Below are positions 14,805 through 55,356 of a stretch of DNA of 64,000 nt, in pieces; the stretch's first letter is position 1, and the number at the start of each line of letters is the position of its first letter. Origin of the DNA: Thermoflexus sp. (lineage in GTDB: Bacteria > Chloroflexota > Anaerolineae > Thermoflexales > Thermoflexaceae); NCBI RefSeq assembly GCF_040289485.1, contig NZ_PSLG01000004.1, positions 1,402-65,401 of the forward strand. Reading direction: 5' to 3'. Position numbers and translations under genes: made by a program. Below the pieces are notes generated by a model. It did no database searches. It saw only the letters and a list, made by a program, of their open reading frames with translations, and had not been told where the DNA came from.

Positions 14805-15413
14805 TCAGGAACGAACCGCCGCCTTCTCGCCCTTCTTGGCCTTCTCCGCCTCCTTCTCCGCCTGCTCCCGGGCCCAATCCGATGGATGGATCTGCGCATG
14901 ATAGGTGTCGGGCTTGAGCAGGCGAGGCAGATCGAAGAGGAGGGACTCATAGCGCTCGTAAGACGACAACTCGTATTCGTGATCCATCTTGATGGCGTCG
15001 AAGGGACAGAACTCCGCACAGAAGCCGCAGGACATGCAGATCGTGGCGTCGATGTAGAAGGCCTCCGGCTCTGGCTTGGGGCGCCCGGTGTTGGGGTCGG
15101 TGCCCCGCACGATCCAGATGCACTGGGGCGGGCAGACCTTGGCGCAGATCCCGCAGGCGGTGCACTTGATCTTCTCTTCCTGGGTGTCGTAGACCAGGAA
15201 GGGGATATAACGGAAGTTCTCCGGCAGCGGCAGCTTCTCCTTGGGGTATTGGACTGTGAACACCCCGCGGGCCCGCGGCCCCTGCCGCTCCAGGAGATGA
15301 CGGGGATGGTAGCGGCCGCCCTGGAAGAGATAGCGCACGTCCTCAATATATGAATAGAGGAAGTGCTTGAGGGTCACGCCCAGTCCTTTGAGGATGCCGA
15401 GACCGTAGACCAT
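14805..15413 (-). CDS. nuoI: NADH-quinone oxidoreductase subunit I
   Basis: 'TVQYP', 'CTACGICAKVCP', 'CMSCGFCAEFCPFDAI'. Confidence 0.93.
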   Translation of the reverse strand: MVYGLGILKGLGVTLKHFLYSYIEDVRYLFQGGRYHPRHLLERQGPRARGVFTVQYPKEKLPLPENFRYIPFLVYDTQEEKIKCTACGICAKVCPPQCIWIVRGTDPNTGRPKPEPEAFYIDATICMSCGFCAEFCPFDAIKMDHEYELSSYERYESLLFDLPRLLKPDTYHAQIHPSDWAREQAEKEAEKAKKGEKAAVRS

Positions 15414-15437
15414 CGGGCTTCGCCTCCTTCCACGAGC

Positions 15438-17216
15438 TTAGCGGTCCACCTCGCCCAGGACGATGTCGATGCTGCCCAGGATGACCACCACGTCGGCCAC
15501 CTTGTGGCCCTTGCACATCTCGTTCAAGGCGGTGAGGTTGATAAAGGACGGGGCCCGGATGTGATAGCGATAGGGGTTGGGGCTGCCGTCGCTCACCACA
15601 TAGAACCCCAGTTCACCCTTGGGGTTCTCCACCCGCCCGTAAGCCTGGCCAGGGGGCACCCGGATCATATATTGCTTCTTCCCGGCCTGGATCTCCCCCT
15701 TCGGGATCTGGTCCAGGGCCTGGCGGAGGATGCGCAGGGACTGCCACATCTCATCGATGCGGATAAGGTAACGATCGTAGACGTCACCGTTGTAGCGGAC
15801 GGCGACGTCGAAGTCGAAGCGATCGTAGATGCTGTAGGGCTCGGCCCGCCGCACGTCGTAGGGGATCCCCGAGGCCCGAAGCACCGGGCCGGCCGTGCTG
15901 TAGGCCACCGCCAGGTCCGGGGGCAACACCCCCACCCCCTGGCACCTGGCCTTGATCAGTTCGTTGTGGGTGAGGTAGCGGTCCAGTTCCTCGATGGCCC
16001 GCGGCAGACGGTTGTAGACCAGTTCCTTGGCCCGGGCGATCCAGTCGTCCGAGACGTCGTGGGCCACCCCGCCGAAGCGCATGTAGTTGCACATCATGCG
16101 GGAGCCCGAGGCCTCCTCGAAGAGGTCCAGGATCAACTCCCGCTCCTCGATGGCGTAGAGGGCGGGGGTGAAGAAGGCTCCCAAGTCGTTGAGGAGGAAG
16201 CCGATGGCCCACAGGTGGTTCACGATACGGGTGAACTCCGCCATGATCACCCGCAGGTATTCCGCCCGCTCCGGCGGCCGGATCCCCAGAAGCTTCTCCA
16301 CGGCGAGGGCGTAGCCTAGGTTGTTGCTCATGGAGCAGATGTAATCCAGGCGGTCGGTGTAGGGCATGTTCTGCAAATACATGTTGCGCTCGCCGATCTT
16401 CTCGTGGTTGCGGTGGAGATAACCCATCACCGGCTCCAGGCGGACGATGGTCTCTCCATCCAGGGTGATCACCATCCGGAAGACGCCGTGGGTGCTCGGG
16501 TGCTGGGGGCCCATGTTGACCACCAGCCGCTCGGTCCGCAGGCTCTTGGGCTCGACGGGCTCCCCCGTGTCCGCGCGGGCGAACTGCCCCATGCCGATGT
16601 AGAGCAACTCGTCGGCGGTGTCCTCGACTTGATCTGGATCCCAGTCCAGAGGATACTGGACGTTGTCATGCCAGAAAGCCCGGTCCTCCGCCCGGATGTG
16701 GTGGCCGGAGGGCCAACGGCTGCTGAAGGGCTTGTGCTCCTCCTCAAAGTAGGGCTCCCGCCAGTCTTTGCGGAGGGGATGTCCGTGGAAGCCCTCCCAG
16801 AGGAGGATCCGCTTGAGGTTCGGATGCCCAGCGAAGCGAATGCCCATCAGGTCCCAGGCCTCGCGCTCCTGGAAATCGGCGCCGGGCCACACCGAGACCA
16901 TGGAGGGGATGGTGGCCACGTCCCGGGGGGTGCGGGCCTTGAACACCAGCGGCCCGCCGCCCTCCAGGCGATAGGCGTGGTAGACGACCTCGAAATAGCC
17001 CTCCTGGAGATAATCGACCGCCGTCAGGCTGGAGAGATACCGATAGCCCAGTTCGTCCCGGATGAAGCGGGCAGCCTCCACCAGGACTTCGTTGGCGATC
17101 ACCACCCCCTCGTATTCGGCCGGCTGGACGGCCTCGCCGAACCGTTCCTTCAGAATGGCCAGATCGCCTTTCAGCTCGGCCAAAGGAGCTGCTTTGGCTT
17201 TGGTCGGCGCGGACAT
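15438..17216 (-). CDS. nuoCD: Fused NADH-quinone oxidoreductase subunits C and D
   Basis: NuoC '[21 protein letters not shown]...GHPLRKD' then NuoD '[10 protein letters not shown]', 'GYLHR', 'DRLDY', 'ENPKGELG', '[12 protein letters not shown]'. Confidence 0.96.
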
Positions 17217-17276
17217 CGAAGCCTCCTCACCTGGCGGACAGGATGGACGACCCGGACGGCTGTCGATCGAAGGGCT

Positions 17277-17942
17277 TCAAGAAGCCCCCTCGGAAGGAGC
17301 CTCCGCCGCCTTCGCCCGCAGCGCCGCCAGCCGGGCCCGGATCTCCGGCAGCCGGCGCGGGTCGATGAGATCGGGGCCCAGGATAGGCACCGGGACCGCC
17401 TCCGACTCGCCCCGCTGATACCAGGGGACGGTGCGGACCGACTGGCGCTCGATCTTCTCATAAAGCTTCAACAGGCCGTGGAGCAGGGCCTCCGGGCGCG
17501 GCGGACAGCCCGGCACGTAGACGTCCACAGGGATGAACTTATCGATGCCCGAGACCACGTTGTAGCCCTCCTTGAAGGGCCCTCCGCCGGTGGCACAGGC
17601 GCCCATGGAGATCACATATTTGGGCTCGGGCATCTGGTTGTAAAGTCGGACGATCTGCGGGACCATCTTCTTGGTCACCGTGCCGGAGACGATCATGAGG
17701 TCGGCCTGGCGGGGGCTGGGGCGCATCAACTCCGAACCGAAGCGGGCGATGTCGAAGCGGCTGGCCGCCGCGCAGATCATCTCGATGGCGCAACAGGCCA
17801 GGCCGAACATCATCGGCCACACGGAGCGCTTGCGCCCCCAGTTGTAGATGTAACTCACAAAGCGGTCGATGGTGGTAACGAGGACGTTGTCCCGCAGCTC
17901 CAAAGGGACCGGCATGGTGTTGAGGTCGCGCAACTCATCCAT
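17277..17942 (-). CDS. nuoB: NADH-quinone oxidoreductase subunit B
   Basis: '[10 protein letters not shown]', 'SPRQADL', 'SMGACA', 'PGCPPRPE'. Confidence 0.97.
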
Positions 17943-18147
17943 GGGCGAGCACCTCCTCGAGCCATTCCCGCTGGATCTCTTCCAACCGCACCGGGTCCTT
18001 CAGGCGCGGATCGTCAGCGAAGCCGGGCAGGGCCACCACCCAGCGGTGTAACGTATCCCAATCCACCGCCAGGGGATCCACCTCCGGATGGGCCTGTCGC
18101 AGGGCCCGCGCGATGGGATACGCGTCGTCCCAGTAAAAACGCTCCAT
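17935..18147 (-). CDS. iscX: IscX/YfhJ-like Fe-S assembly regulator
   Basis: 70 aa, '[12 protein letters not shown]...HPEVDP..V....[15 protein letters not shown]......[11 protein letters not shown]' follows the IscX pattern (W.D...I...L...P..DP..V.F..L..W...L..F.DDP...LE.I...W..E). Overlaps the nuoB start by 8 nt. Confidence 0.8.
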
Positions 18148-18163: not shown

Positions 18164-18203
18164 AATCGCTAACCCGGGTTAACAAAAGATGGGGCGCCCG
18201 CCC

Positions 18204-23427: not shown

Positions 23428-23432
23428 GGCCC

Positions 23433-23861
23433 TCAACCCGCATGACCTTCTCGGCGGATGCGGCGGCGGCGGGCGACCTCCAAGCGGACCCGGGAGCGAC
23501 GCAGGGCGGCCAGGGCGGCATTCAGGTCGACGCCCGCTGGCTGCTCCTTGAGGATCTGCTCCGCCCGCTGGCGGGCCTCCTCTGCCCGGGCCACGTCGAT
23601 CTCTTCGGCCCGCTCTGCCACATCGGCCAAGACGATCACCTTCTCCGGGGTCACCTCCATGAACCCCCCGTGGATGGCGAACCACAACTCCTCGCTTCCT
23701 CGCCGGGCCAGCAGAGGGCCGATGCCCAGGGCCGTGAGCAGGGGCGCGTGCCCGGGCAGGATCCCCAGTTCCCCCTCCGCCCCGGGGGCCACCACCATGT
23801 CCACATCGCCGCTGAACAACGCCCGCTCCTGGGTGACGATCTCTAAACGCAACGGGCTCAT
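23433..23861 (-). CDS. atpC: ATP synthase epsilon subunit
   Basis: 'LEIVT', '[14 protein letters not shown]', 'GGFMEV', C-terminal helical hairpin. Confidence 0.95.
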
Positions 23862-23910
23862 CCGCCGATCCCCTCCGGCAAGGAGATGACGAAGGGCGCG
23901 CCGGCCCCGC

Positions 23911-25326
<1,416 letters not shown>

Positions 25327-25400
25327 TCACCTCCCCGACGAAAGGATATGGTCTGCGACCTCTGGCGTGCGCCCGTGGTTGCTCCGCACATCCGCGCCGC

Positions 25401-26351: not shown

Positions 26352-26526
26352 ACACACCTCCTCATCGGCTCAGGATGCTGCCCCCCCGCGCCCGAGAGGA
26401 TCTGGCCCCAGCTTCAACCTCACGGGAGCAGGGAATCCCTCACAACCGCTCCGTCCGCACCCGGGTGGAACAGCACCATCTCCACCTGGACACGGGCTGC
26501 CGCCGCGGCCATCCCGCCGGCCCCCC

Positions 26527-42979: not shown

Positions 42980-43033
42980 CTACCATCCTTAACCGGGTGA
43001 CCAGAGAGATGGTTCCGTCTGCCGTCTCCGGCT

Positions 43034-43768: not shown

Positions 43769-43870
43769 CGTCGGCCTCCCCTCGTCGCAGTTTCATGCCC
43801 GAAAGAGGCTCCAACCGCCTCCCCATTCACCATCGATGGCAAGGGCGCGCCGCTTGAAGCCGGATGACCA

Positions 43871-44152
<282 letters not shown>

Positions 44153-44196
44153 TTATAAGATGATCGCCCCCCAAGTCGGGGAGGTGGCAATCCGCT

Positions 44197-45477
44197 TCAG
44201 TGGGACGCATCCGGATGTCCGGAGGGCCCTTCACCGTGGCCCGCCATGGCCAGGGCGATGAAGACCATAGTCAACATCATGAAAATGAAAGCCTGGATCA
44301 AGCCAACGAAGATCTCCAGTCCATAAAAGATGGCGGGGACCAACAGCGGCAGCAGGAAGATCATGATCCCCAACAGCACGTGGCCGGCAAAGATGTTCCC
44401 GAACAACCGGAAGGAGAAGGAAAGAATCTTGGCCACCTCGCTGACCAGCTCCAGGAGGCTGACCAAGAATTCGATGAACCCCATGAAACCGTGGCGCAGG
44501 GCCTTGATGTTAAAGAACTTCCAGAAATAGCCCGGGCCGAGAGTCCGAACCCCCCAGACCTGCACCATGAAGACAGCCACCAGGGCCAGTCCGATGGTGA
44601 AGTTCAAATCGGTGCTCAGGGCTCGGAGGTAGGGGACTAAAACATAGCCGCCCTTCTCGGCCTCCGCCCCGTGCCCTTGGGCTTCGTGGCCAGTTTCGGC
44701 AGACGCGGCCGCCTCTGCAGTGAGGAGGGTGAGGGGCCCCCAGCGGATGACATGATAGCCGGGCTCCGGGCCATGGGCCTTCTCCACCCTCCCGATGGAA
44801 TCGAAGCCCGGGATCAGCCCCATCCAGTTGGCCGTCAGCACCATCAGGAAGATGGAGGCCACCAGCGGGAAGATCTGCCGGGCCCGGTGCCCCAGCACCA
44901 CCTTGGCCAGGTTCTCGTAGAGGGTCTCGACCAGGAACTCAAAGAGATGGACCAGCACCCCCAGCCCGCGGAGGGGAGGCGGCAGCGGCCCCGCGCGCCG
45001 CGCGGCCAAGAGCCCTAGACCCAGCACCACCCCATCCACCAACACCATCGCCACCATGGTGTTGGTCAAAGGCGCCCCGAAGATCAGCGGCCCGGTCAGG
45101 GGCTCCGGTTTCACCAGGATCACCGGCAGCACCGCCTTCACCGGGCGCCCCGCCACCGATAGGCCGCTCCCCAACGTCCCGAAGAACAGCGAGGTCCCCA
45201 GCACGAAACCGAGAACCAGGGGGGTCACCACCAGGATCTGGAAATAGCGGATCACCCGGACGTCCCGCAGCCCCCACAGGACCACGGCGAACACAATGGC
45301 GTCCACCAGGAGGGTTCCGATCCAGCCGGCCGCTGACGACAGCCCACGGGCCCCCTTGAGCAACGCGTCCAGGTTGCCGAGCAGCCAGAGGGAGGCCTGG
45401 CCGCCCACCCCGCAGGAGAGCAGCCCGATCAGCCCCAACAACAGATACGGTCCCAACCGCCGGATCAGCTTCCCCAT
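44197..45477 (-). CDS. atpB: ATP synthase subunit a with a long N-terminal membrane extension
   Basis: 'LTNT', 'ANWMGLIPG', 'STDLN', 'SFSFRLFGNIFAG', 'LEIFVGLIQAFIFMMLT'; 426 aa. Confidence 0.95.
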   Translation of the reverse strand: MGKLIRRLGPYLLLGLIGLLSCGVGGQASLWLLGNLDALLKGARGLSSAAGWIGTLLVDAIVFAVVLWGLRDVRVIRYFQILVVTPLVLGFVLGTSLFFGTLGSGLSVAGRPVKAVLPVILVKPEPLTGPLIFGAPLTNTMVAMVLVDGVVLGLGLLAARRAGPLPPPLRGLGVLVHLFEFLVETLYENLAKVVLGHRARQIFPLVASIFLMVLTANWMGLIPGFDSIGRVEKAHGPEPGYHVIRWGPLTLLTAEAAASAETGHEAQGHGAEAEKGGYVLVPYLRALSTDLNFTIGLALVAVFMVQVWGVRTLGPGYFWKFFNIKALRHGFMGFIEFLVSLLELVSEVAKILSFSFRLFGNIFAGHVLLGIMIFLLPLLVPAIFYGLEIFVGLIQAFIFMMLTMVFIALAMAGHGEGPSGHPDASH

Positions 45478-45788
45478 GGCGAGGACTCATCCTCCCCTTG
45501 GGATGGGACGGGAGGCGGGCCCGGTTTCCGCCGCGGGCCCGGCTCCCCCATCCGGAACTGGGCCGCTGCCGTTATGGCAGCCCGAACCATCACGATCAGC
45601 CCCAGGGTGGCCCCCAGCAACATACAAGCAGCCGTCAGGACCGGCCGGGTGCCCAGCCGAAGATCCAGCCAGAGGCCGCAGAACATCGCCCCCACCACGG
45701 CCACCACCGGGATGAAGCCGATTTGAGACAACGCCCCGGCCAGCGCCAAATTCCAAGCCCGGATCCACCATCGCCCCGGGGACTTCAT
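45465..45788 (-). CDS. AtpZ/AtpI (ATPase gene 1) family protein
   Basis: Two TM helices flanking 'GLWLDLRLGTRP'; overlaps the atpB start. Confidence 0.8.
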   Translation of the reverse strand: MKSPGRWWIRAWNLALAGALSQIGFIPVVAVVGAMFCGLWLDLRLGTRPVLTAACMLLGATLGLIVMVRAAITAAAQFRMGEPGPRRKPGPPPVPSQGEDESSPWGS

Positions 45789-45959
45789 CGAACCCCTTCG
45801 GCCCCGGTTTCCCCCCAGGGAGTTCTCCCGGACGTCGGATCGCTCCCCTTCTCACAAAGCGCAGCCCTTATAGGATACCTGCTTCGCCCCTCTGTGACAA
45901 GGGGGGCCTTAGAAAATCGGCCCTGCGCGGCGGTTTTTCCCTTCGTGCTTCTCATAGCG

Positions 45960-47414
45960 TTAGAAAGCCTGGGCGGCCAGCAGCGCCAATTGATACAGCG
46001 GATAGACCAGAACCGTCAGCAGGATCACCCCGGCCACCGTGAACCACAGGGTGAGGCGCTCAGGCCGGGAGATCCAGATCGGCTTCCCCTCCTCCGGGGA
46101 GCGGTCTACATACATGGCCCGGGCCACCATGATGTAGTAATAAAAGGCAACCATGGCGTTGAGGACGCCGGCGACGGCGAGCCAGAGCAGACCGCTCTCG
46201 ATGGCGGCGGCGAAGACGAAGAGCTTGGCGAAGAAGCCCACCAGCGGCGGGATGCCGCCCAGGGAGAGCAAAGCAGCCAGCATCGCCAAGGCCAGGCCCG
46301 GCGACCGCCGGGAGAGGCCGGCCAGGTCCCGGATCTCCTCGCTGCCCGTTGCGTTGGTCATGATCACCGCCACGGCGAAGGCGGCGATGTTGGTCAGCGT
46401 GTAGATCCCCAGATAGAAGATCGAGGCGGCGATCCCCAGCGGGCTGGCCGCGGCCACGCCGATCAGGATATAGCCAGCCTGGGCGATGCTGGAATAAGCC
46501 AGCAGCCGCTTCAGGTTGCGCTGGGGGATGGCCAACAAGTTCCCCACGGTCATGGTCACGAAGGCCAGGGCGGCGATCAAGGCCACCCAGTTCCCTTGGA
46601 CCGCGGCGAAGGCCTCGATCATGGCCCGGATCAGGACGGCGAAGCCCGCGGCTTTGGAGGCGACAGAGATGAACGCCGTGATCGGTGTCGGCGCCCCCTC
46701 ATAGACGTCTGGCGTCCAGAAATGGAAAGGGACTGCGGAAACCTTGAAGCCAAAGCCCACCAGGACCAGCAGGAGGGCAGCCATCACGGCAGAGGTCGGA
46801 AGGGTGCCCAAAGACCGGGCGATGCCCCCGTAACCGATCTCGCCCGTGAACCCGTAGAGCAGGGCCATCCCGTAAAGCATCACCGTGGAACTGAAAACGC
46901 CGAACAGAAAATACTTGAGGCCGGCCTCCGCCGAGCGCGGCGTCTCGCGCAGATACCCGGCCAGCAGATACAAGGCGATCCCCGCTGTCTCCAGGGCCAG
47001 ATATAGGGTCACCAAATTGATGGCCGCTCCCATCAACCCCATCCCCAGGACAGCGATGAGTATCAGGGCGTAATATTCCCCGCTCTGACGCAACGGACGG
47101 AAGTCCATCGAGATGGCCGCCGTCAGGATCCCCGAGAGGATAAAGATCAACCGGAAGAACATGGCGGCCAGGTCCGCCCGGACCGACCCGCCGAACGCCT
47201 CGTAAGGGGCGGCCAGGCCTCCGACCAACTGGGCGGCCTGCAGGACAGCGACCCCGAAGGCGGCCAGCAAGCCCCCGATGGCCCAGTAGCCCAGTTCCCG
47301 CTTCCGGCCTTCCGGGAGCCCGGCGTCGACGGCCATCACCAGCACGGCCGCCACGACCAACACGATCTCCGGCAGGACCGACCACAGATGTGCCCACCAT
47401 GAGAGCCCGACCAT
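45960..47414 (-). CDS. nuoN: NADH-quinone oxidoreductase subunit N
   Basis: 'LPE', 'YLALET', 'EAGLKYF', 'GFKVSAVPFHFWTPDVYEGAP', 'KRLLAYSSI', 'SLGGIPP..GF.AK'. Confidence 0.96.
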   Translation of the reverse strand: MVGLSWWAHLWSVLPEIVLVVAAVLVMAVDAGLPEGRKRELGYWAIGGLLAAFGVAVLQAAQLVGGLAAPYEAFGGSVRADLAAMFFRLIFILSGILTAAISMDFRPLRQSGEYYALILIAVLGMGLMGAAINLVTLYLALETAGIALYLLAGYLRETPRSAEAGLKYFLFGVFSSTVMLYGMALLYGFTGEIGYGGIARSLGTLPTSAVMAALLLVLVGFGFKVSAVPFHFWTPDVYEGAPTPITAFISVASKAAGFAVLIRAMIEAFAAVQGNWVALIAALAFVTMTVGNLLAIPQRNLKRLLAYSSIAQAGYILIGVAAASPLGIAASIFYLGIYTLTNIAAFAVAVIMTNATGSEEIRDLAGLSRRSPGLALAMLAALLSLGGIPPLVGFFAKLFVFAAAIESGLLWLAVAGVLNAMVAFYYYIMVARAMYVDRSPEEGKPIWISRPERLTLWFTVAGVILLTVLVYPLYQLALLAAQAF

Positions 47415-47451
47415 CCAGTCCTCCTCGCTCGCGGGATGGCTCAACGCCGGA

Positions 47452-49011
47452 TCATCGGATCGAGGCGAGCATCGCGCCGTGGAGCAACGCTGCGATGGGC
47501 TCTACTCCCGTCTGGATCATATCGGTCATCACTCGCGGGAACACTCCGATGAGGACGAACCACACAGCGAGGGTGATGATGGCCACCTTATCCAGGACGG
47601 TGACATCCCCCGCCTCCGGGAACCGCCCGCGGTCCAGTTCTCCAAAGAAGGTGGCCTGCAGGGCCCGCAGGATGTAGGCCGCTGAGAGTGCGATGCTGGG
47701 GGCCGCCAGGATGGCCATCCACGGATACCACCAGGCGGTGTCCCGCGCCGCCCAGATCCCAGCGAACACCTGGAACTCAGCGATGAAGCCGGAGAAGCCA
47801 GGCATCCCCATGGCCACCAACCCGCCCAGCACGAAGCCCAACGTCGCCATGGGCATCACCCGGGCGAAGCCGCCCAGGTGCGCTAGGTAGCGGGTGTGGG
47901 CCCGGTCGTACACCATGCCCACCACGGCGAACAGGATGGCCGCCATCACCCCGTGGGAGAACATCTGCAGGACGGCCCCCGTCAGGCCGGTGACGTTCAT
48001 GGCGGCGAACCCGATGGTCACGAAAGCCATGTGGCCGATGCTGGAGAAGGCAATGACGTATTTGAGGTCCTCCTGCACCAGCGAGATGGCCGCTGAATAC
48101 AGGGCGGCGACGACGGCCAGGAAGACCACCACGGGCAGCCAGTAGACCGCCCCGCCGGGCAACAGTTCGATGCCCACCCGCAGGGCGCTGTAAGCCCCCA
48201 CCTTCATCACCACACCGGCCAGGAACATCGAGCCCGCCGTGGGCGCCGCCGAGTGGCCATCCGGCACCCAGTTGTGGAACGGCCAAAGGCCGGCGGTCAC
48301 CGCGAAGCCCAGGAAGATCGGCAGGAACCACAAGTAGTCGAAGCGGACGGCCCTCCCCAGCACCTGCACCGACCGGGCGAAGGCCCCCTGGGCGGCCAGG
48401 TCCCGCAACACGTCCATATCGAAGGTGCGCACGGGCGAGACGAAGTAGAGGGCCAGGGCCCCCACCAGGGCGATGATGGAGCCCACCAGGGTGTAAAGGA
48501 CCAACTTCATCGCCGCGTATTCTTTGCGGGTGGAGCCCCAGATGGCGATCAGGAAATACTTGGGGAAGATGGCGATCTCATAGAAAAAGAACAGCAAGAC
48601 CAGGTTGCGGGCAACGAAGACGCCGATGATCCCACTGGCCAGCAGCAACATGAAGGCGAACAGTTCGTGGGGGCGGTCCTCGATGTTCCACGAGACCAGG
48701 ACCCCGGTGAAGAGGACGAGGGCCGAGAGCAGCACCAGGGGAAGGCTGACCCCATCCACGCCGATGTAGTAATGGATCCCCAGTTGGGGCAGCCAGGCCA
48801 CGCGCTCGACGAACTGATACCCCCCGGCCCCCCGGTCGTAGGCCAGGAAGGCCCACAGGGCCAGCAACAGGGTGAAGCCCGAGACCGCCGCCGCGAAGAC
48901 GCGGGCGGCCTCCTTCTGGTGACGCGGGATCAGCAACAAGACCAAGGCGCCCAGCAGCGGCGTCAACACAATGAAACTCAGGATCGGGATCGGCACCGTT
49001 GAGATCGTCAT
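47452..49011 (-). CDS. nuoM: NADH-quinone oxidoreductase subunit M, second copy
   Basis: 'YYIGVDGVS', 'FFFYE', 'WPFHNWVPDGHSAAPTAGS', 'MKVGAYS', 'AFSSIGHM', 'MGMPGFSGFIAEF'. Confidence 0.93.
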   Translation of the reverse strand: MTISTVPIPILSFIVLTPLLGALVLLLIPRHQKEAARVFAAAVSGFTLLLALWAFLAYDRGAGGYQFVERVAWLPQLGIHYYIGVDGVSLPLVLLSALVLFTGVLVSWNIEDRPHELFAFMLLLASGIIGVFVARNLVLLFFFYEIAIFPKYFLIAIWGSTRKEYAAMKLVLYTLVGSIIALVGALALYFVSPVRTFDMDVLRDLAAQGAFARSVQVLGRAVRFDYLWFLPIFLGFAVTAGLWPFHNWVPDGHSAAPTAGSMFLAGVVMKVGAYSALRVGIELLPGGAVYWLPVVVFLAVVAALYSAAISLVQEDLKYVIAFSSIGHMAFVTIGFAAMNVTGLTGAVLQMFSHGVMAAILFAVVGMVYDRAHTRYLAHLGGFARVMPMATLGFVLGGLVAMGMPGFSGFIAEFQVFAGIWAARDTAWWYPWMAILAAPSIALSAAYILRALQATFFGELDRGRFPEAGDVTVLDKVAIITLAVWFVLIGVFPRVMTDMIQTGVEPIAALLHGAMLASIR

Positions 49012-49050
49012 CCCCATCGCCTCCAAAGCAGGTCGTCGTCCACCCCCGCC

Positions 49051-50595
49051 TCAGCCGAGCAGCTGCATCAGCGCCGCGTTGAGCGTCGGCACGATCCACG
49101 CCGGCCACAGGCCGGTGAGCAACATAAAGGCCATCAACGGGGCCAGCGCCAGGACCTCCCGGGCGGTGATCTCGGGCAGGCGGGCCCATTGAGGGTTCAG
49201 GGGCCCATGCAGCACCTTCTGGATCGCCTTCATCACGAAGGCCCCGGTGATGAGCAGCCCGAGCATCGCGATGGCCGTCAGCCCGGTGAAGACCGGCCAG
49301 GCCCCTTGCACCACGAGATACTCGGCCACAAAGCCGGCCAGCCCCGGCAACCCCACCGAGGCCATCGCACAATAGATCAGGATCCCCCCATAAACCGGCA
49401 TCCGGTTCCACAACCCCCCATATGCCTCCAGGTCCCGTGTGTGGGTGCGGTCATAGATCACCCCTACCAGGGCGAACATGGCGGCCGAGGAGAGGCCGTG
49501 GGCAAACAACTGTAGGGCCGCCCCGTTGAGGGCGAGGAGGGCATGGCCGCGGACCGCCGGGTTGCCCAAGGCGTAGCCGGCCACCGCGATGCCCAACACC
49601 ACGAATCCCATGTGGTTCACCGAAGAATATGCGACCAACCGCTTGAAATCCCGCTGGCCCAGGGCCGCGTAGGCCCCGAAAACGATGGCCGCTGTAGCCA
49701 GCAACGCCAGCGCCAGGGCGAACCGCGCCGACTCCGCCGGGAAGAGCGGGAACACGATGCGCAGGAAGCCGTAGGCCCCCAGTTTCAACAGGATCCCCGC
49801 CAGGATCATCGAGCCGGCGGTAGGGGCTTCTGTGTGGGCATCCGGCAACCACGTGTGGAACGGCCAGACCGGGATCTTGATGGCGAAGGCGATGACAAAA
49901 GCCCAGAAGACCACCGCCTTCACCACTTCCATCGGGACCCCGAACAGGGTCCCCTGAAGAGCCGGCCAGCGCCGGCTGATCTCCAAGAGGTCAAAGGTCC
50001 CCCCCTGAGTGCCGCCCAGAGCCGCCCAGATCAACTGGATCCCCAGTAGCAGCCCCAGGGAGCCCGCCATCGTGTAGAGGATGAACTTCAAGGCCGCATA
50101 GTGACGGCGCTCCGGCGCCCCCCAGTTGTTGATCAGGAAATACATGGGCACCAGGCCGATCTCCCAGAACAGGAAGAAGAGCAACAGATCCAGGCTGACG
50201 AACACGCCCAAGATGCCGGCCTCCAGAGCCAGGAAGAGAGCGAAGTAGGTCCGCGGGTCTTGGGTGATGTTAAACGAAACGAGCACCCCCAGGGGAGTGA
50301 GGAGAGCGGTCAGGAAGATCAGCATCACGCTGAGCCCGTCGACCCCCAGGAAATACGTTGCGTTCACCTGAGGGAGCCAGACCGCCCGTTCGACGAACTG
50401 AAAGCCCGGACGGCCCGGATCGAAGTTCAACCAGAGCCAGGCCGAAAGGCCCAGGGGGATCAGGCTGAAGAGCAAGGCCAGCCCCCGATGCAGCCGAAGG
50501 CTGTCCCGGGGCGTCAGGGCGATCACCAGGGCCCCGAACAGCGGGAAGAAGGTGATCAGGGTCAGGATGGGGATCGGTTGCCCGAAGAGCGTCAT
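49051..50595 (-). CDS. nuoM: NADH-quinone oxidoreductase subunit M, first copy
   Basis: 'YFLGVDGLS', 'FWEIGLVPMY', 'KIPVWPFHTWLPDAHTEAP', 'LLKLGAYG', 'AYSSVNHMG'. Confidence 0.96.
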   Translation of the reverse strand: MTLFGQPIPILTLITFFPLFGALVIALTPRDSLRLHRGLALLFSLIPLGLSAWLWLNFDPGRPGFQFVERAVWLPQVNATYFLGVDGLSVMLIFLTALLTPLGVLVSFNITQDPRTYFALFLALEAGILGVFVSLDLLLFFLFWEIGLVPMYFLINNWGAPERRHYAALKFILYTMAGSLGLLLGIQLIWAALGGTQGGTFDLLEISRRWPALQGTLFGVPMEVVKAVVFWAFVIAFAIKIPVWPFHTWLPDAHTEAPTAGSMILAGILLKLGAYGFLRIVFPLFPAESARFALALALLATAAIVFGAYAALGQRDFKRLVAYSSVNHMGFVVLGIAVAGYALGNPAVRGHALLALNGAALQLFAHGLSSAAMFALVGVIYDRTHTRDLEAYGGLWNRMPVYGGILIYCAMASVGLPGLAGFVAEYLVVQGAWPVFTGLTAIAMLGLLITGAFVMKAIQKVLHGPLNPQWARLPEITAREVLALAPLMAFMLLTGLWPAWIVPTLNAALMQLLG

Positions 50596-50646
50596 CGCTG
50601 GCTTCCCCCTTCGCGTTCGGATCTTCCAGCGCTCCCATCGGCTCCC

Positions 50647-52791
50647 TCAGAAGCCGATCAGCATGGGCGCCACGGTATAGAGGACAATGAAGCCCAAGAT
50701 GCCCAGCACCACCACCAGCAGGTAGTTTTGGACCAGCCCGGTCTGCAGGGCCCGCAGCTCCCGGCCGGCGGCCTTGACGGCCTCCCCGATCCCGTCGCCG
50801 ATGCCGTTGACCACCACGCGGTCGAAGAGCCGCAAGGCGGCGCCCATCGACCATACGGCGTCGGCGATCCCGTGCAGGAGCCCGTCGATCACCACCCGGT
50901 CCATAAAGAGGGCCACCGCCCGCTCGGCCAGCCAGAGGGTGGGCCGCACAAAGAGCAGATGATACAAGTCGTCGATATACCAGCGGTTCTTCAGGAAGGT
51001 GTAGACGGGGCCCAGGCGAGCCAGGGGATCGGGGGCGCCAGCGGCCAGGGGACGCCGCCCGTAAACCCACCAACCCAAGAACAGACCGGCCAGCGCGATC
51101 GCCGAGGAAAGCAAGACGGGAGCCGGGTGGAAAGGCAGCGCCTCCGGGTGCTCTAGGAGGGTCCCCCCCACGAACGCGTGGAACCAGTTCCTGCCCACAA
51201 GACCGCTCAGGACGGGGAAGCCCTCCGGCACCCCGACGAACCCGCCGAGCAGGGCGAAGAAGGCCAGGAACACCAGCGGGAAGATCATCGCGCCAGGGCT
51301 CTCCTCCGCGTGGGCCGCAGCGGCCGTCCGAGGCTCCCCCAGGAAGGTGAGGGCGATCTGGCGCATCGTATAGAAGCCGGTGAGGAGGGCCGCCGTCGCC
51401 AGGAGCAGGAAGACCAGGAGCGGAAGAACCTCCCCTTTCTCAAAAGCCCCGCGGAAGGCCTCCCCCAGGATCTCGTCCTTGCTCCAGAAACCCGCCGTGA
51501 TCAAGGGGAACCCGGCCAGGGAAAGCCCGCCGGCCAGGAAGGTCCAGAAGGTCACCGGCATCCGCCGGCTCAGGCCGCCCATGTTGAACATGTCGTTGGG
51601 GTCGAAAGGTTCCCCATGGCCTTTGTGGCTGCCGGCGGGATGATGGCCGTGCTCCACGGCGTGGATGACGGAGCCGGAGCCCAGGAAGAGCAAGGCCTTA
51701 AAGAAGGCGTGGGTGATGAGATGGAAAGCCGCCGCCACATAGGCCCCGATCCCCACGGCAGCCAGCATATAACCCAGTTGAGAGATAGTGGAATAGGCCA
51801 GCACCCGCTTGATGTCGTTCTGGGCCATGCCCATGGTGGCGGCCATGAACGCTGTGAAGGCGCCGATCAAGGCCACCACCCAGAAAGCGGCCTCGCCCCC
51901 CAGGCCGTGCTGCCCGGCCTGCAGGAGCGGGAACATACGGATGGTGGTGTAAACCCCGGCCGAGACCATGGTGGCGGCGTGGATCATCGCGCTGACGGGG
52001 GTGGGGCCTTCCATCGCGTCCGGCAACCACACGTGCAGCGGGAACTGGGCGCTCTTGCCCACCGTCCCGGCGAAGAGCAGCAGCGAGGCCAAAGCGGCCA
52101 CCGAGAGCCCGGCCACGTAAGAGGGCGTCTCCGCCAGCGCCTTCAGGGTCTCCGGGTTCCGCAGGATGTCGTGGAAGTTCAACGTCCCGGTCTGGGCATA
52201 GAGGTAGGCGATGCCCAGAAGCATCACCACGTCGCCCACGCGGGTGGTCATGAACGCCTTCACGGCGGCGCGGTAGGCCGAGGGCTTGCGGAACCAGAAG
52301 CCGATGAGGGCGTAGGAGCAGAAGCCCATCACCTCCCAGCCGATGAATAGCATCAGGAGGTTGTCGGCCACCACGAGCAACAGCATCGCCGCCTCAAAGA
52401 GGGAGAGGAGGGCGAAGAAGCGGCTGTAGTGGGGATCCCCCGCCATGTAGCCGACGCTGTAGATGAAGATCATCAACGAGACCAGGGGCACCATAAACAG
52501 CATCACCGCCCCCAGGGGATCCACCAACACGCCGAACTCCAGGGGCCGCGCCCCGACCGGCAGCCAGACGATACGCGCGGCGATGGGATGCTCTCCGAGG
52601 TGCTCGGTTCGGATGGCGGCCCAGAACACCACCTGGGAGAGGACGAAGGAGATGGCCACCGAGAGGATGGCTAGGGTGTGGCTGAGCCGCTTCCAGCGAT
52701 TGGCGACAAGGGCGATCAGGCCGAAGGCGATGAAAGGCGGCCATGGGATGAGGGCCACCAACAACGGCAGGAGCGTTCCCTGGGTCTCCAT
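50647..52791 (-). CDS. nuoL: NADH-quinone oxidoreductase subunit L with extended lateral helix
   Basis: 'YSVGYM', 'GWEVMGFCSYALIGFW', 'GKSAQFPLHVWLPDAMEGPTPVSA', 'HAFFKALLFL', 'FWSKD', 'QTG'. Confidence 0.97.
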   Translation of the reverse strand: METQGTLLPLLVALIPWPPFIAFGLIALVANRWKRLSHTLAILSVAISFVLSQVVFWAAIRTEHLGEHPIAARIVWLPVGARPLEFGVLVDPLGAVMLFMVPLVSLMIFIYSVGYMAGDPHYSRFFALLSLFEAAMLLLVVADNLLMLFIGWEVMGFCSYALIGFWFRKPSAYRAAVKAFMTTRVGDVVMLLGIAYLYAQTGTLNFHDILRNPETLKALAETPSYVAGLSVAALASLLLFAGTVGKSAQFPLHVWLPDAMEGPTPVSAMIHAATMVSAGVYTTIRMFPLLQAGQHGLGGEAAFWVVALIGAFTAFMAATMGMAQNDIKRVLAYSTISQLGYMLAAVGIGAYVAAAFHLITHAFFKALLFLGSGSVIHAVEHGHHPAGSHKGHGEPFDPNDMFNMGGLSRRMPVTFWTFLAGGLSLAGFPLITAGFWSKDEILGEAFRGAFEKGEVLPLLVFLLLATAALLTGFYTMRQIALTFLGEPRTAAAAHAEESPGAMIFPLVFLAFFALLGGFVGVPEGFPVLSGLVGRNWFHAFVGGTLLEHPEALPFHPAPVLLSSAIALAGLFLGWWVYGRRPLAAGAPDPLARLGPVYTFLKNRWYIDDLYHLLFVRPTLWLAERAVALFMDRVVIDGLLHGIADAVWSMGAALRLFDRVVVNGIGDGIGEAVKAAGRELRALQTGLVQNYLLVVVLGILGFIVLYTVAPMLIGF
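50746..50901 (-). repeat. 26-codon tandem duplication in the NuoL lateral helix
   Basis: DRVVIDGLLHGIADAVWSMGAALRLF / DRVVVNGIGDGIGEAVKAAGRELRAL; the two Asp codons are 78 nt apart (50901, 50823). Confidence 0.8.
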
Positions 52792-52810
52792 CCGGCTCCA
52801 CCTCGTGGGG

Positions 52811-53119
52811 TTAACCCTTCAGAAGATCGATGTTCTCAACGTCCACCGTCTCCCGGTTGCGATAGGTGCTAATGATCAACGCCAGGCCGGCCGCTGCCTC
52901 CGCCGCCGCCACCACCAGGACGAAGAGGGCGAAAGCCTGCCCCGTGGTCGCCGCGGGATGCAGATACCGCCAGAAGGCCACCAGGGTGATGTTGACGGCG
53001 TTCAACATCAGTTCGATGGCCATCAGGATGGCGATGGCGTTCCGCCGGGCCAGCACCCCATAGACCCCTGTGCAGAAGAGCGCCGCCGCCACCAGCAGAT
53101 ATGCGCTCAGGGATACCAT
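52811..53119 (-). CDS. nuoK: NADH-quinone oxidoreductase subunit K
   Basis: '[18 protein letters not shown]', '[11 protein letters not shown]'. Confidence 0.97.
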
Positions 53120-53194
53120 CCCGGATCCTCCTCACGAGGCGCAGATGTCACCGACCGACACCAGGCTCGCGATGGCGCCTTCCCCATCATGGCC

Positions 53195-53695
53195 CTAGCG
53201 CTTCTCCCGGGCGATGAAGATGGCCCCCACCAGCGCCGCCAGGATCATCACCGAAGCCAGCTCGAAGGGCAAGGCGAACTGCACGGGGTCCACCAGGGAG
53301 CGGCCCAGGGCCTCAATGGCATCGCCGGGCACCGGGGGGGCCGCCTGGGGCCACGGGAAGCCCGCCAGCACAGGGGCCAGGAGCAGGAAAAAGAGCCCGG
53401 CGATCACCGCGGCCGCCAGGCTCTGGTTGTTCAAGGGCGGGCCCGGGTTGCGGGCCATGCCCCGCGTGAGCATGACGGCGAAGATGATCAGGATGGAGAT
53501 CGCCCCGATATAGATCAGCACCTGGACCCCCGCCAGGAACTCCGCCTCCAGGAGCACGAACAGCCCCGCCACGCCCACGAGGGACAGGATCAGGTAGAGG
53601 ACCGCGTGGAAAAGATGGCGGCTGAGCACGGTCATCAGGCCTGCCCCCAGGGTCAACAGCGCAAACAGGAGAAACATCCCCTGCAACAGCGTCAT
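53195..53695 (-). CDS. nuoJ: NADH-quinone oxidoreductase subunit J
   Basis: 'AEFLAGVQVLIYIGAISILIIFAVML', 'LPFELASV'. Confidence 0.95.
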   Translation of the reverse strand: MTLLQGMFLLFALLTLGAGLMTVLSRHLFHAVLYLILSLVGVAGLFVLLEAEFLAGVQVLIYIGAISILIIFAVMLTRGMARNPGPPLNNQSLAAAVIAGLFFLLLAPVLAGFPWPQAAPPVPGDAIEALGRSLVDPVQFALPFELASVMILAALVGAIFIAREKR

Positions 53696-53719
53696 CGCCG
53701 GTCGCTCCTCTCGGTGGGA

Positions 53720-54931
53720 TCAATGCACCGGGGCCGCCGCCTCCACCGGCTCCGCCTCCTCCGCAGGGGCCATCGCCGCCATGCGGGCCCGGCGCCCCAG
53801 ATAGCCCACCAGGGCCAGGGCCCCGACGAGCATCACCCAGTTGAAGGCGGCAAGGGCCGCCGCCCATGTCCCGCCGGACACCCCGGCCGCCCGCAGCCCC
53901 TTGTCCAGGAGGGCCACCCCGATCAGGTTGAGGATCATCAGCGGCGTGAGGAACTTCCAGTTGAGGTTGAGCATCTGGTCGATCCGGATGCGCGGCAACG
54001 TCGCCCGTAGCCAGAAGAACAGGAAGATCCCCACCCCCATCTTGATCAGCGTCCACAGATAGGGCGGCAACCAGGGGCCCCGCCAGCCGCCCAGGAAGAG
54101 GACAGCGAAGAGGGCCGAGACCACAAGGGCGTGGACGAACTCGCCCAGGAAGACCAGGGCGAACTTCATCCCACTGTATTCGATGTGGAAACCGGCCACG
54201 ATCTCGGATTCTGCCTCCAGAAGATCAAAGGGGGTTCGGCCGACCTCCGCCACACCGGACGCAAAGAACACCAGCGCCGCGAGGGGGAGGACCAGGATGT
54301 AGGGCACATCCTGGGCGAGGACGATGCCCACGGTGGACATGGTGCCCGCGATCATCACCACGGTCACCACGCTGAAGACCGAGGGGATCTCGTAACTGAT
54401 CAGTTGAGCCACCGCCCGGAAGGCCCCGAGGAGGGCGTATTTGTTGTTGCTCCCCCATCCGGCCATCAACACCCCCACCAGGGCCCCCGCCCCCACCGCC
54501 AGGGCGTAAAGCACCCCGATGTTGAGATCCGCACCGATGGCCCCCGGCCCGAAGGGGATCACCACCAGGGGTGCCACGGCGCACGTGGCGATGATCAGCG
54601 GGGCCAGGTTGTAGACCCAGCGGTCAGCCCCAACCGGCATGGTGTCCTCTTTGGTGAGCAATTTGATGCCATCGGCCACCGGCTGGAGGAGCCCATAGGG
54701 CCCGGCCACGTTCGGCCCCAGACGATCCTGGAAGCGGGCTACAACCTTGCGTTCCACATAGGTGAGCAGAGCGAACCCGATGAGCCCGAAGTTGGCCAGG
54801 AGGAAGGCCTTGATCAGCCCCACGATCAGGACCACGGCCCACTCCGGAAGCCCTAGCCCCCGCAGGAACCCATACAGCCAAGCTCCCAAGTAAGGCAGCA
54901 AGTTATAAAGGAGGTCGTAGATCCGTTCCAT
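53720..54931 (-). CDS. nuoH: NADH-quinone oxidoreductase subunit H
   Basis: 'ERK', 'QDRLGPN..GPYGLLQPVADGIKL..KE', 'NKYALLG..R', 'RTPFDL.EAESE', 'EYSG'. Confidence 0.97.
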   Translation of the reverse strand: MERIYDLLYNLLPYLGAWLYGFLRGLGLPEWAVVLIVGLIKAFLLANFGLIGFALLTYVERKVVARFQDRLGPNVAGPYGLLQPVADGIKLLTKEDTMPVGADRWVYNLAPLIIATCAVAPLVVIPFGPGAIGADLNIGVLYALAVGAGALVGVLMAGWGSNNKYALLGAFRAVAQLISYEIPSVFSVVTVVMIAGTMSTVGIVLAQDVPYILVLPLAALVFFASGVAEVGRTPFDLLEAESEIVAGFHIEYSGMKFALVFLGEFVHALVVSALFAVLFLGGWRGPWLPPYLWTLIKMGVGIFLFFWLRATLPRIRIDQMLNLNWKFLTPLMILNLIGVALLDKGLRAAGVSGGTWAAALAAFNWVMLVGALALVGYLGRRARMAAMAPAEEAEPVEAAAPVH

Positions 54932-54999
54932 GGCGCGCTTCACCCCCCGTGACGAACGCTCCGGCAGATCCCCTGACCAGCCCGGCCCATCTCAAGGCC

Positions 55000-55356
55000 T
55001 CAGACCCACTCCAACGACCCCTTCCGCCAGGCATACAGCAGACCGCCCAACAGAAGGAGCAAAAAGAGGGCCATCTCGACCACGGCATAAAACCCCAGCC
55101 GGTTATACGCGACCGCCCACGGGAACAGGAAGACGGCCTCTACGTCGAAGAGGACAAAGATAAGGGCGAAGATATAATACTGGGCGCGGAACTGGACCCA
55201 CGCATCGCCGACTGTCTGAACACCGCACTCGTAGGTTTCCAGTTTCAGCGGGTTGGGTTTCTTGGGCCGCAACAGCCACCAGAGGAGGAGGGTGGCCCCC
55301 AGCAACACCACTGTCACCACGAGGAACAGGCCGACCAGCGCATACGCTTGCAGCAC
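55000..55356 (-). CDS. nuoA: NADH-quinone oxidoreductase subunit A
   Basis: 'KLETYECG', 'YYIFALIFVLFDVE..FLFPWA'. RBS AAGGAGG supports a GTG start at 55356. Confidence 0.96.
   Translation of the reverse strand: MLQAYALVGLFLVVTVVLLGATLLLWWLLRPKKPNPLKLETYECGVQTVGDAWVQFRAQYYIFALIFVLFDVEAVFLFPWAVAYNRLGFYAVVEMALFLLLLLGGLLYAWRKGSLEWV

What the first reader, a model, noticed from the sequence alone, without database searches (positions are those of the whole stretch)
14805..55356. Complex I and ATP synthase are both split into membrane and soluble gene blocks, and the two membrane blocks are adjacent
Seen: nuoA-H-J-K-L-M-M-N (55356-45960) is followed after 171 bp by atpZ-B-E-F/H (45788-43034), so the membrane subunits of both machines form one 12.3-kb block closed by a terminator at 42952. 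The F1 genes atpAGDC lie ~15 kb away and nuoB-CD-I ~28 kb away, behind separate promoter-like elements. Established: atp operons are usually contiguous, and nuoA normally precedes nuoBCD. Inference: membrane sectors and catalytic heads may be regulated separately, or the membrane arm may pair with interchangeable heads.
Basis: partly seen in the sequence, partly recalled or inferred. Interest (0 to 1): 0.68.

Follow-up and report, generated by a model that had tools for sequence, protein, structure and literature searches.

The report
Complex I membrane genes abut ATP-synthase Fo genes
In this Thermoflexus genome the genes for the membrane parts of a complex I variant and of the ATP synthase lie side by side, away from the genes for their soluble parts. 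The layout is real and inherited across many Anaerolineae, is built from largely published pieces, and gives no sign of swappable heads.

Summary
On the minus strand, nuoA-H-J-K-L-M-M-N (55356-45960) is followed after 171 bp by atpZ-B-E-F (45788-43034) and a strong terminator. atpAGDC lies 14.8 kb away and iscX-nuoB-nuoCD-nuoI 28 kb away.

It is not an assembly artefact. A complete Thermoflexus genome is collinear over the whole 45 kb. The nuoN-to-atp junction recurs in 8 of 16 informative Anaerolineae families, while the flanking genes are conserved only within the genus.

Most pieces are already published:
- the split, NuoEFG-less "2M" complex I of Chloroflexi (Chadwick 2018, as quoted in PMC7117926);
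- the missing delta subunit in Thermoflexus (PMC8129789);
- atp operon splits in other phyla (PMC4154653);
- atp genes inside a nuo locus in Muribaculaceae (PMC4936053), a layout this scan has also noted in other genomes.

I found no report of two points. One is the wide conservation of this junction. The other is that a b subunit fused to only the C-terminal domain of delta never had atpA next to it among the loci examined.

"Interchangeable heads" is not supported. The genome has one quinone module per membrane arm, one F1 and one NuoEFG set (in a canonical nuoA-N operon on another contig). A promoter-like motif conserved within the genus, lying in the nuoN-atpZ gap, argues for two tandem transcription units. 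No RNA data could be obtained.

The parts
55396..55424 (-). Promoter-like element upstream of nuoA (TTGATC, 17-nt spacer, TG-extended TATAAT)
   Evidence: 10 of 12 matches, TG present. Sequence read, about 40 nt upstream of the GTG start.
45960..55356 (-). Membrane-arm unit of a NuoEFG-less two-NuoM (2M) complex I: nuoA (55000-55356), nuoH (53720-54943), nuoJ (53195-53695), nuoK (52811-53119), nuoL (50647-52791, 714 aa), nuoM (49051-50595), second nuoM (47452-49026), nuoN (45960-47444)
   Evidence: NCBIfam hits. NuoL carries a 26-residue insertion (residues 657-682) relative to the genome's canonical NuoL.
45789..45959 (-). 171-bp nuoN-atpZ spacer with a promoter-like motif (45872-45900) and no terminator-like structure
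   Evidence: TTGTCA-17-TATCCT; the -35, the -10 and an upstream ATTTTC are conserved in six Thermoflexus genomes while the rest of the spacer varies; fold z = 0.10.
43034..45788 (-). Fo unit: atpZ/AtpQ-like (45465-45788, PF09527), atpB subunit a (44197-45477, 426 aa, overlaps atpZ), atpE subunit c (43871-44137), atpF (43034-43768), which is subunit b fused to the C-terminal domain of delta
   Evidence: In atpF, Pfam ATP-synt_B covers residues 11-139 and OSCP profile positions 104-170 cover residues 175-240. PDB sequence matches to b and to delta C-terminal domains.
42941..42990 (-). Intrinsic-terminator-like hairpin with a T-rich tail that closes the Fo unit
   Evidence: -49.7 kcal/mol, z = -4.17, 0 of 200 shuffles as stable.
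29463..29471 (-). Extended -10 (TGgTATAAT) directly after the stop of the M42 peptidase gene; candidate promoter of the unit that contains atpAGDC
   Evidence: Sequence read. In G006 a TATAAT stands in the M42-atpA gap. No -35 match was found, so this is a weak call.
28264..29427 (-). Two tandem Uma2-family genes lying between that promoter-like element and atpA
   Evidence: Pfam. In G006 they are absent from this position, and Uma2-like DNA lies between atpA and atpG instead.
23433..28218 (-). F1 unit: atpA (26527-28218, 563 aa), atpG (25401-26357), atpD (23911-25326), atpC (23433 to about 23861)
   Evidence: all four pass the canonical F-type equivalog cut-offs and fall below the N-ATPase ('alternate F1F0') cut-offs.
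14805..18147 (-). Peripheral-arm (quinone-module) unit: iscX-like gene (17935-18147, overlaps nuoB by 8 nt), nuoB (17277-17942), fused nuoCD (15438-17216), nuoI (14805-15413)
13723..14877 (-). Mrp/ApbC-type Fe-S cluster carrier gene directly after nuoI (the true start is probably later than this ORF start)
   Evidence: NF041136 and NF008669, E about 1e-94.

Best explanation
This is the inherited, lineage-typical arrangement of oxidative-phosphorylation genes in Thermoflexus and many other Anaerolineae. It is not a special regulatory device of this genome.

A NuoEFG-less, complex-I-type gene cluster lies directly upstream of the atp genes, and the nuoN-to-atpZ/atpB junction has been kept across half of the sampled families. 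In this branch the genes for the hydrophilic subunits lie elsewhere: nuoB-CD-I as its own unit headed by an iscX-like gene, and atpAGDC as another. What remains is a run of twelve genes, eleven for integral membrane proteins plus the membrane-anchored stator subunit atpF.

The atp break coincides with a remodelled stator. The N-terminal domain of delta is gone, and its C-terminal domain is fused to subunit b at the end of the Fo unit.

The run is most likely two tandem transcription units. One starts at the nuoA promoter. The other starts at a promoter in the nuoN-atpZ gap that is conserved within the genus. No terminator lies between them, so read-through from nuo into atp is possible. One strong terminator follows atpF.

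Each membrane sector has exactly one cognate soluble partner encoded elsewhere in the genome.

Shown: the anatomy, its conservation, the gene copy numbers and the terminator. Inferred: promoter activity, read-through, the order of rearrangements, and that selection for coordinated synthesis or insertion of the two proton-conducting sectors maintains the junction.
For: - Gene identities.
- Collinearity with complete genome G006 over 45 kb and with five other genus assemblies.
- In an unbiased sample of one genome per family, nuo ends directly upstream of the atp Fo genes in 8 of 16 informative families: Thermoflexus, G019, G020, G026, G028, G032, G038 and G040.
- Of 80 loci seeded with the b-delta protein, 47 have nuoN directly upstream. 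The median gap to the next same-strand ORF is 124 bp, range -4 to 239.
- Flanking genes are conserved only within the genus.
- Intermediate layouts exist. G020/L111 has nuoLMMN-atpZBEF, then a stand-alone 76-aa delta C-domain, then atpAGD. G019 has a contiguous nuoABCDHIJKLMN followed by atpBEF. At least eight Anaerolineales loci have nuoAHJKLMN-atpBEF, 3.4-5.9 kb of other genes, then nuoB-CD-I.
- No locus with a fused b-deltaC has atpA next to it. Nearly all loci with separate b and delta have atpAGDC directly downstream.
- A terminator follows atpF. None is seen in the nuoN-atpZ spacer. A conserved promoter-like core lies in that spacer.
- Copy numbers: two quinone modules for two membrane arms, one nuoF, one F1, one Fo and no V-type ATPase.
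Against: - There are no transcript data, so promoters, read-through and stoichiometry remain predictions.
- The 80-locus set was seeded with the b-delta protein and is biased toward this architecture. Only the 27-family sample is unbiased, and it is small.
- Related genomes are not independent observations.
- The order of rearrangements is not established. In the NuoN tree (quick search, one long outgroup) the fused and split state occurs in both major clades and the unfused G020 sits at the base of one. The split could therefore have arisen twice or been reversed.
- Conserved adjacency does not in itself show a functional reason.
Confidence: 0.75

Rival explanations
1. The twelve membrane-sector genes form a single polycistronic operon, transcribed from the nuoA promoter to the terminator after atpF. 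This would fix the ratio of complex I membrane arm to Fo, as the first reader's 'one 12.3-kb block' implies.
For: All genes are on one strand. The gap is only 171 bp and has no significant structure. The only strong terminator follows atpF. In other families the gap after nuoN is sometimes 0-15 bp.
Against: The spacer carries a -35/-10 pair with 17-nt spacing. Its core, together with an upstream A/T-rich stretch, is the conserved part of an otherwise variable spacer in six Thermoflexus genomes. The c subunit is needed in large excess over Nuo subunits, which favours an additional promoter (established knowledge of Fo stoichiometry).
Confidence: 0.2
2. The membrane arm pairs with interchangeable heads. 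The split lets one membrane arm or one Fo combine with alternative soluble modules under different conditions.
For: The 2M gene set has no nuoEFG, so its electron-input module must either be borrowed from the canonical operon or be something else.
Against: There are only two quinone-module gene sets for two membrane arms, and one of them sits inside a complete canonical operon. The split nuoCD is 72% identical to the NuoD of a relative's contiguous 11-subunit operon and 44% identical to the canonical paralogue. Relatives G028 and G019 have the EFG-less set but no NuoF above the family cut-off, so the enzyme does not depend on a canonical partner operon. There is one F1 and no V/A-type ATPase.
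Confidence: 0.07
3. The adjacency is neutral historical synteny with no selective value. Two respiratory clusters happened to land side by side and have not yet been separated.
For: Within the genus the whole 45 kb, including unrelated genes, is collinear. At that depth conservation says nothing. Some genomes with a fused b-deltaC lack nuo upstream: L066, L067, L107 and G017.
Against: Outside the genus both flanks are lost, yet the junction persists at 45-60% protein identity in many families and in both NuoN clades. An independent linkage of EFG-less nuo genes with atp genes exists in Muribaculaceae.
Confidence: 0.2
4. The layout is an assembly or binning artefact of this metagenome-assembled genome.
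For: The genome is a 127-contig MAG.
Against: All blocks lie on one contig. The same order occurs in a complete single-contig genome and in many independent assemblies.
Confidence: 0.01

Closest known systems
2M complex I of Chloroflexi (Chadwick, Hemp, Fischer and Orphan 2018, ISME J; read here only as quoted in PMC7117926)
   Same: Two nuoM genes lie between nuoL and nuoN. nuoB-CD-I is separated from the membrane genes. nuoC and nuoD are fused. There is no nuoEFG in the cluster. NuoL has a 26-residue insertion, the same length as reported for Nitrospira 2M NuoL.
   Different: Nothing differs in the nuo genes themselves. The passage I could read does not mention the atp Fo genes directly downstream of nuoN. 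The original paper was not held, so I cannot exclude that a figure shows them.
Split atp loci of Alphaproteobacteria and Nitrospirae (break between b and delta; Koumandou and Kossida 2014, PMC4154653)
   Same: The Fo genes (atpI-like, a, c, b) and the F1 genes lie at separate loci.
   Different: In those lineages delta heads the F1 unit. Here there is no atpH: only the C-terminal domain of delta survives, fused to b in the Fo unit. That survey lists Chloroflexi as unsplit.
N-ATPase (atpDCQRBEFAG; Dibrova et al. 2010, PMC2881411)
   Same: No atpH. An unusually long b whose C-terminus aligns with the C-terminus of delta. An AtpQ (PF09527) gene is present.
   Different: Alpha, beta, gamma and epsilon score above the canonical F-type cut-offs and below the N-ATPase cut-offs. 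The gene order differs and no atpR was seen. It is the only rotary ATPase in the genome, whereas N-ATPases always accompany another ATP synthase.
F-type ATP synthase integrated in the complex I locus of Muribaculaceae/S24-7 (Ormerod et al. 2016, PMC4936053)
   Same: An 11-subunit, NuoEFG-less nuo locus is physically linked with atp genes, and the linkage is inherited across families (the lead came).
   Different: According to earlier notes of this scan (not checked here), all eight atp genes there are nested between nuoH and nuoI. Here only the Fo genes follow nuoN, the F1 genes are elsewhere, and the phylum is different.
[quoted passage not shown] 2021, PMC8129789)
   Same: Same genus and same observation: no annotated delta in T. 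hugenholtzii or in any of the MAGs.
   Different: In the passages I read, that paper records the absence only. Here the C-terminal domain of delta is located inside atpF, and the absence of the N-terminal domain is tested with a clade-specific profile.

Membership tests
2M complex I, Chloroflexi type | Two nuoM genes between nuoL and nuoN | tested here: met
   two ORFs (514 and 524 aa) both pass TIGR01972 (NDH_I_M). They are 38% identical to each other.
2M complex I, Chloroflexi type | Extension of about 26 residues in the C-terminal part of NuoL | tested here: met
   a 26-residue insertion at residues 657-682 relative to the canonical NuoL of the same genome. The length matches that quoted for Nitrospira. 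I did not check by structure that the insertion lies in the lateral helix.
2M complex I, Chloroflexi type | nuoBCDI separate from the membrane genes, with nuoC and nuoD fused; no nuoEFG in the cluster | tested here: met
   (592-aa NuoC+NuoD protein). The unit lies 28 kb from nuoN. The only NuoF is on contig C115. The definition is as quoted.
2M complex I, Chloroflexi type | Extra proton pumped per cycle | not testable with these tools
   This needs biochemistry.
Canonical bacterial F1Fo ATP synthase | Alpha, beta, gamma, epsilon, a, c and b of the canonical type | tested here: met
   TIGR00962, TIGR01039, TIGR01146, TIGR01216, TIGR01131, TIGR01260 and TIGR01144 all score above their cut-offs.
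Canonical bacterial F1Fo ATP synthase | Full-length delta (OSCP) with the N-terminal domain that binds alpha | tested here: not met
   The only OSCP match in the genome covers profile positions 104-170, inside atpF. A profile built from ten Anaerolineae delta proteins, run at maximum sensitivity on all six-frame ORFs, finds only that stretch (profile positions 74-171). The MAG is 96.9% complete.
N-ATPase | Subunits cluster with the 'alternate F1F0' models; operon order atpDCQRBEFAG with atpR; always a second ATPase in the genome | tested here: not met
   the alternate models score below their cut-offs and below the canonical models. The gene order differs. No other rotary ATPase is present.
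atp genes integrated in a nuo locus (Muribaculaceae type) | Whole atp operon nested inside an EFG-less nuo operon | tested here: not met
   Only atpZ-B-E-F is linked. It lies after nuoN, and atpAGDC is 14.8 kb away. The shared trait is linkage, not architecture.

The most novel reading that the evidence does not exclude
Selection keeps the genes for the membrane-embedded and membrane-anchored subunits of the proton pump and the proton turbine together as a 'membrane-sector' block. They would be made and inserted at one place and time, possibly as neighbours in the membrane. The stator, a b subunit fused to only the C-terminal domain of delta, would then mark a distinct assembly route in which a finished Fo-stator captures a separately made F1 without the delta N-terminal clamp. 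This would be the sole ATP synthase of a whole bacterial class branch.
Probability: 0.15. Interest if true: 0.6.

Novelty: new variant of a known kind. Interest (0 to 1): 0.36.

Why it matters
If the junction is maintained by selection, Anaerolineae would be a second phylum-level case, after Muribaculaceae, in which an NuoEFG-less complex I and the ATP synthase are genetically tied. Only the membrane halves are tied here, which points to coordination at the level of membrane insertion or assembly rather than of whole enzymes.

The practical gain is smaller:
- It explains why annotation pipelines report "no delta subunit" and "incomplete complex I" for these genomes.
- It gives a synteny marker for recognising the cognate nuoB-CD-I set.
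- It identifies a canonical-type F-ATP synthase that must work as the sole ATP synthase without the delta N-terminal domain. That makes it a natural test case for how the peripheral stalk holds F1.

Tried and rejected
- Chadwick et al. 2018 is not in the held library by DOI or PMC id. Its content is cited only as quoted by PMC7117926 and PMC9040806.
It succeeded with four sequences.
- Assembly artefact: rejected.
- N-ATPase identity of the atp genes: considered because of the long b, the AtpQ-like gene and the missing delta. Rejected on family scores, gene order and sole-ATPase status.
- A hidden stand-alone delta or a separate delta N-terminal domain: searched with Pfam OSCP and with a clade-specific profile. 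None was found.
- A second ATPase: the weak beta-like match on contig C24 is Rho. No V/A-type A subunit is present.
- Extra quinone modules or hydrogenase-like heads: tblastn with NuoB, NuoCD and NuoI finds only the window's set and the canonical NuoB and NuoCD on C115. The canonical NuoI was found only by the family scan.
- The roughly 50-residue insertion in alpha as compensation for the lost delta domain: not supported. G019 has the fused b-deltaC but lacks the insertion.
- The order of rearrangement events from the NuoN tree: left open, because the search was quick and there is only one long outgroup.

Full report
**What is there**

The window is part of a 67-kb contig of a 2.38-Mb, 96.9%-complete metagenome-assembled genome. 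Relatives are named Thermoflexus in public records.

On the minus strand, family searches identify these units:
- nuoA, H, J, K, L, M, M, N (55356-45960);
- atpZ (PF09527, the AtpQ/"gene 1" family), atpB, atpE and atpF (45788-43034);
- atpA, G, D, C (28218-23433);
- an iscX-like gene, nuoB, a fused nuoCD and nuoI (18147-14805), followed by an Mrp/ApbC Fe-S carrier gene.

A stable hairpin with a T-rich tail closes the Fo genes (-49.7 kcal/mol, z = -4.17). The nuoN-atpZ spacer has no significant structure (z = 0.10).

Between the blocks lie unrelated genes: a DUF3782/PD-(D/E)XK protein, DUF2298, a PMT/NHL protein, sucCD, an ABC ATPase, an M42 peptidase, two Uma2 genes, mreB and an aldehyde dehydrogenase.

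**It is real and inherited**

Complete genome G006 of the same genus is collinear gene for gene from atpF to mrp, at 46-99% protein identity (over 85% for the atp and nuo proteins). Five further genus assemblies carry the same nuoAHJKLMMN-atpZBEF block.

I then took a sample of one genome per family of the class (27 families) and pulled the surrounding DNA. Sixteen families are informative, meaning a canonical F-type locus with at least 2.5 kb of upstream sequence.
- In eight of them a nuo cluster ends directly upstream of the atp Fo genes: Thermoflexus, G019, G020, G026, G028, G032, G038 and G040.
- Seven of the other eight have a contiguous atpBEFHAGD(C) with no nuo upstream; the eighth, G017, has a fused atpBEF with neither nuo upstream nor atpA downstream.

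A scan of GTDB species genomes seeded with the b-delta protein returned 80 loci, almost all labelled Anaerolineae or Chloroflexota. In 47 of them nuoN lies directly upstream. The next same-strand ORF is usually a 90-110-aa atpZ-like gene, at a median of 124 bp.

The genes flanking the block in the window recur only within the genus. It is therefore specifically the nuoN-atp junction that persists, at 45-60% protein identity.

**Variants that show how the layout is put together**

- G019 has a contiguous 11-subunit nuoA-B-C-D-H-I-J-K-L-M-N followed by atpB-E-F.
- G020 (the same sequence as L111) has nuoL-M-M-N-atpZ-B-E-F, then a stand-alone 76-aa ORF that is only the C-terminal domain of delta, then atpA-G-D.
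- Two more loci, L112 and L114, have b plus an 84-aa delta C-domain ORF and a contiguous F1.
- At least eight Anaerolineales loci have nuoAHJKLMN-atpBEF, then 3.4-5.9 kb, then nuoB-CD-I. In the one I annotated, the 5.6 kb hold a Mur ligase, PadR, two NUBPL-like ATPases with ferredoxin domains and NifX-like proteins.

Among the examined loci, no fused b-deltaC has atpA next to it. Nearly all loci with separate b and delta have atpAGDC directly downstream.

From this I infer, but have not shown, that the nuo-atp junction is older than the splits, and that the hydrophilic-subunit genes were removed from a once more compact region. A NuoN tree places all atp-adjacent clusters in two well-supported clades. 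The unfused G020 sits at the base of one clade. The fusion and split may therefore have happened more than once or been reversed. The tree is a quick search with a single long outgroup and does not settle the order.

**The complex I part**

The nuo set is the published "2M" type. As quoted in PMC7117926, Chadwick et al. 2018 describe Chloroflexi with nuoL-M-M-N, a separate nuoBCDI and a fused nuoCD. The NuoL here has a 26-residue insertion at residues 657-682 relative to its canonical paralogue. That is the length quoted for Nitrospira 2M NuoL.

The genome also has a complete canonical nuoA-N operon with nuoE/F/G on contig C115. It carries the only NuoF in the genome. There are thus two quinone modules for two membrane arms.

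The split NuoCD is 72% identical to the NuoD of G019's contiguous operon but 44% identical to its own canonical paralogue. G028 and G019 carry the EFG-less set without any NuoF above the family cut-off. This suggests, by inference, that the enzyme does not rely on a canonical operon's NADH module. None of this supports interchangeable heads.

**The ATP synthase part**

Alpha, beta, gamma and epsilon score as canonical F-type, not N-ATPase. There is one copy of each atp gene. The only other beta-like match is Rho, and no V/A-type subunit A is present.

AtpF is subunit b (residues 1-158) fused to the C-terminal domain of delta (residues 175-242). No N-terminal delta domain is found anywhere in the genome, either with Pfam OSCP or with a profile built from ten Anaerolineae delta proteins.

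The absence of a "prototypical delta" in Thermoflexus is already in print (PMC8129789). A long b with a delta-like C-terminus is known from N-ATPases (PMC2881411). atp splits are catalogued for many phyla, although Chloroflexi were listed there as unsplit (PMC4154653).

**Transcription signals**

- nuoA is preceded by TTGATC-17-TGcTATAAT and a leader with AGGAGG.
- The nuoN-atpZ spacer holds TTGTCA-17-TATCCT. In six Thermoflexus genomes the -35, the -10 (TATCAT in the other five) and an upstream ATTTTC are the conserved core of an otherwise variable spacer.
- A TGgTATAAT follows the stop of the M42 peptidase gene. The two Uma2 genes lie between it and atpA.
- In G006 a TATAAT stands in the 95-bp M42-atpA gap, and the Uma2-like DNA lies between atpA and atpG.
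- For nuoB I see no convincing nearby promoter. A perfect TTGACA-18-TATAAT precedes the upstream aldehyde dehydrogenase gene.

These are consensus matches, not evidence of activity.

**Comparison and verdict**

Each component is known:
- the split 2M complex I;
- the delta-less F-ATPase in this genus;
- Fo/F1 operon splits in other phyla;
- linkage of atp genes with an EFG-less nuo locus in Muribaculaceae (PMC4936053; the lead came from earlier notes of this scan).

I could not find two points in the held literature. First, in Anaerolineae only the Fo half is tied to the end of the nuo membrane genes, and this junction is widely conserved. Second, the Fo/F1 split goes together with the b-deltaC fusion.

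I rate this a new variant of a known kind, of moderate-to-low interest. It is a sound comparative-genomics observation that offers a testable idea about coordinated synthesis of membrane sectors, but it is not a new mechanism. The more exciting reading, interchangeable heads, is not supported.

Noticed in passing
L111:6943-7173, L112:1895-2149, L114:10492-10746, L133:6952-7152: Four loci encode a stand-alone 76-84-aa protein that is only the C-terminal domain of delta. It abuts or overlaps the b gene by a few bases, and atpAGD(C) is still contiguous downstream. This looks like an intermediate between a full delta (171-181 aa in other Anaerolineae) and the fused b-deltaC.
   Followed up: partly
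window 26527-28218 (atpA, residues about 318-368): Alpha is 563 aa, with an insertion of roughly 50 residues relative to the family model. G026, G028 and G032 share it. G019 lacks it although it also has the fused b-deltaC, so the insertion is not tied to the loss of the delta domain.
   Followed up: partly
window 28264-29427; G006:C1:906406-907699: In the window, a tandem pair of Uma2-family (putative endonuclease) genes lies between the promoter-like element and atpA. In the complete Thermoflexus genome it lies between atpA and atpG. The insert has taken two different positions within the F1 cluster.
   Followed up: partly
window 10251-18147: An iscX-like gene (PF04384, E = 2e-17) overlaps nuoB by 8 nt. 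After nuoI come an Mrp/ApbC Fe-S carrier, a CCG/4Fe-4S protein, a radical SAM protein and a PSP1-domain protein, all on one strand. Together they form an Fe-S-rich run around the quinone-module genes.
   Followed up: partly
window 19733-19762: A perfect sigma-70 consensus (TTGACA, 18-nt spacer, TATAAT) lies upstream of the aldehyde dehydrogenase gene. That gene ends 56 bp before iscX-nuoB, so the peripheral-arm genes might be co-transcribed with it. The aldh-nuoB adjacency is conserved in G006.
   Followed up: no
window 44197-45477: Subunit a is 426 aa, with an N-terminal extension of about 110 residues that overlaps the end of atpZ. The extension aligns over its full length at about 80% identity in all genus members, but not in other families.
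   Followed up: no
L079:10812-16377: In Anaerolineales genomes where nuoB-CD-I lies downstream of atpF, the intervening 5.6 kb encode a Mur ligase, PadR, two NUBPL/MinD-like ATPases with 4Fe-4S ferredoxin inserts, two NifX/NifB-like (PF02579) proteins and an ArsR regulator on the opposite strand.
   Followed up: partly
G000:C115:3944-21600 (L161): The canonical nuoA-N operon has a 594-aa NuoF with an N-terminal extension of about 170 residues. It is followed directly by ffh, the signal recognition particle gene.
   Followed up: no
L096, L102, L106 (labelled Pleurocapsa sp.) and L071 (labelled Oceanobacillus sp.): These public MAG contigs carry the Anaerolineae-type b-deltaC locus. L096 and L106 also nest inside an Anaerolineae clade in the NuoN tree. 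The organism labels are probably binning or naming errors.
   Followed up: no
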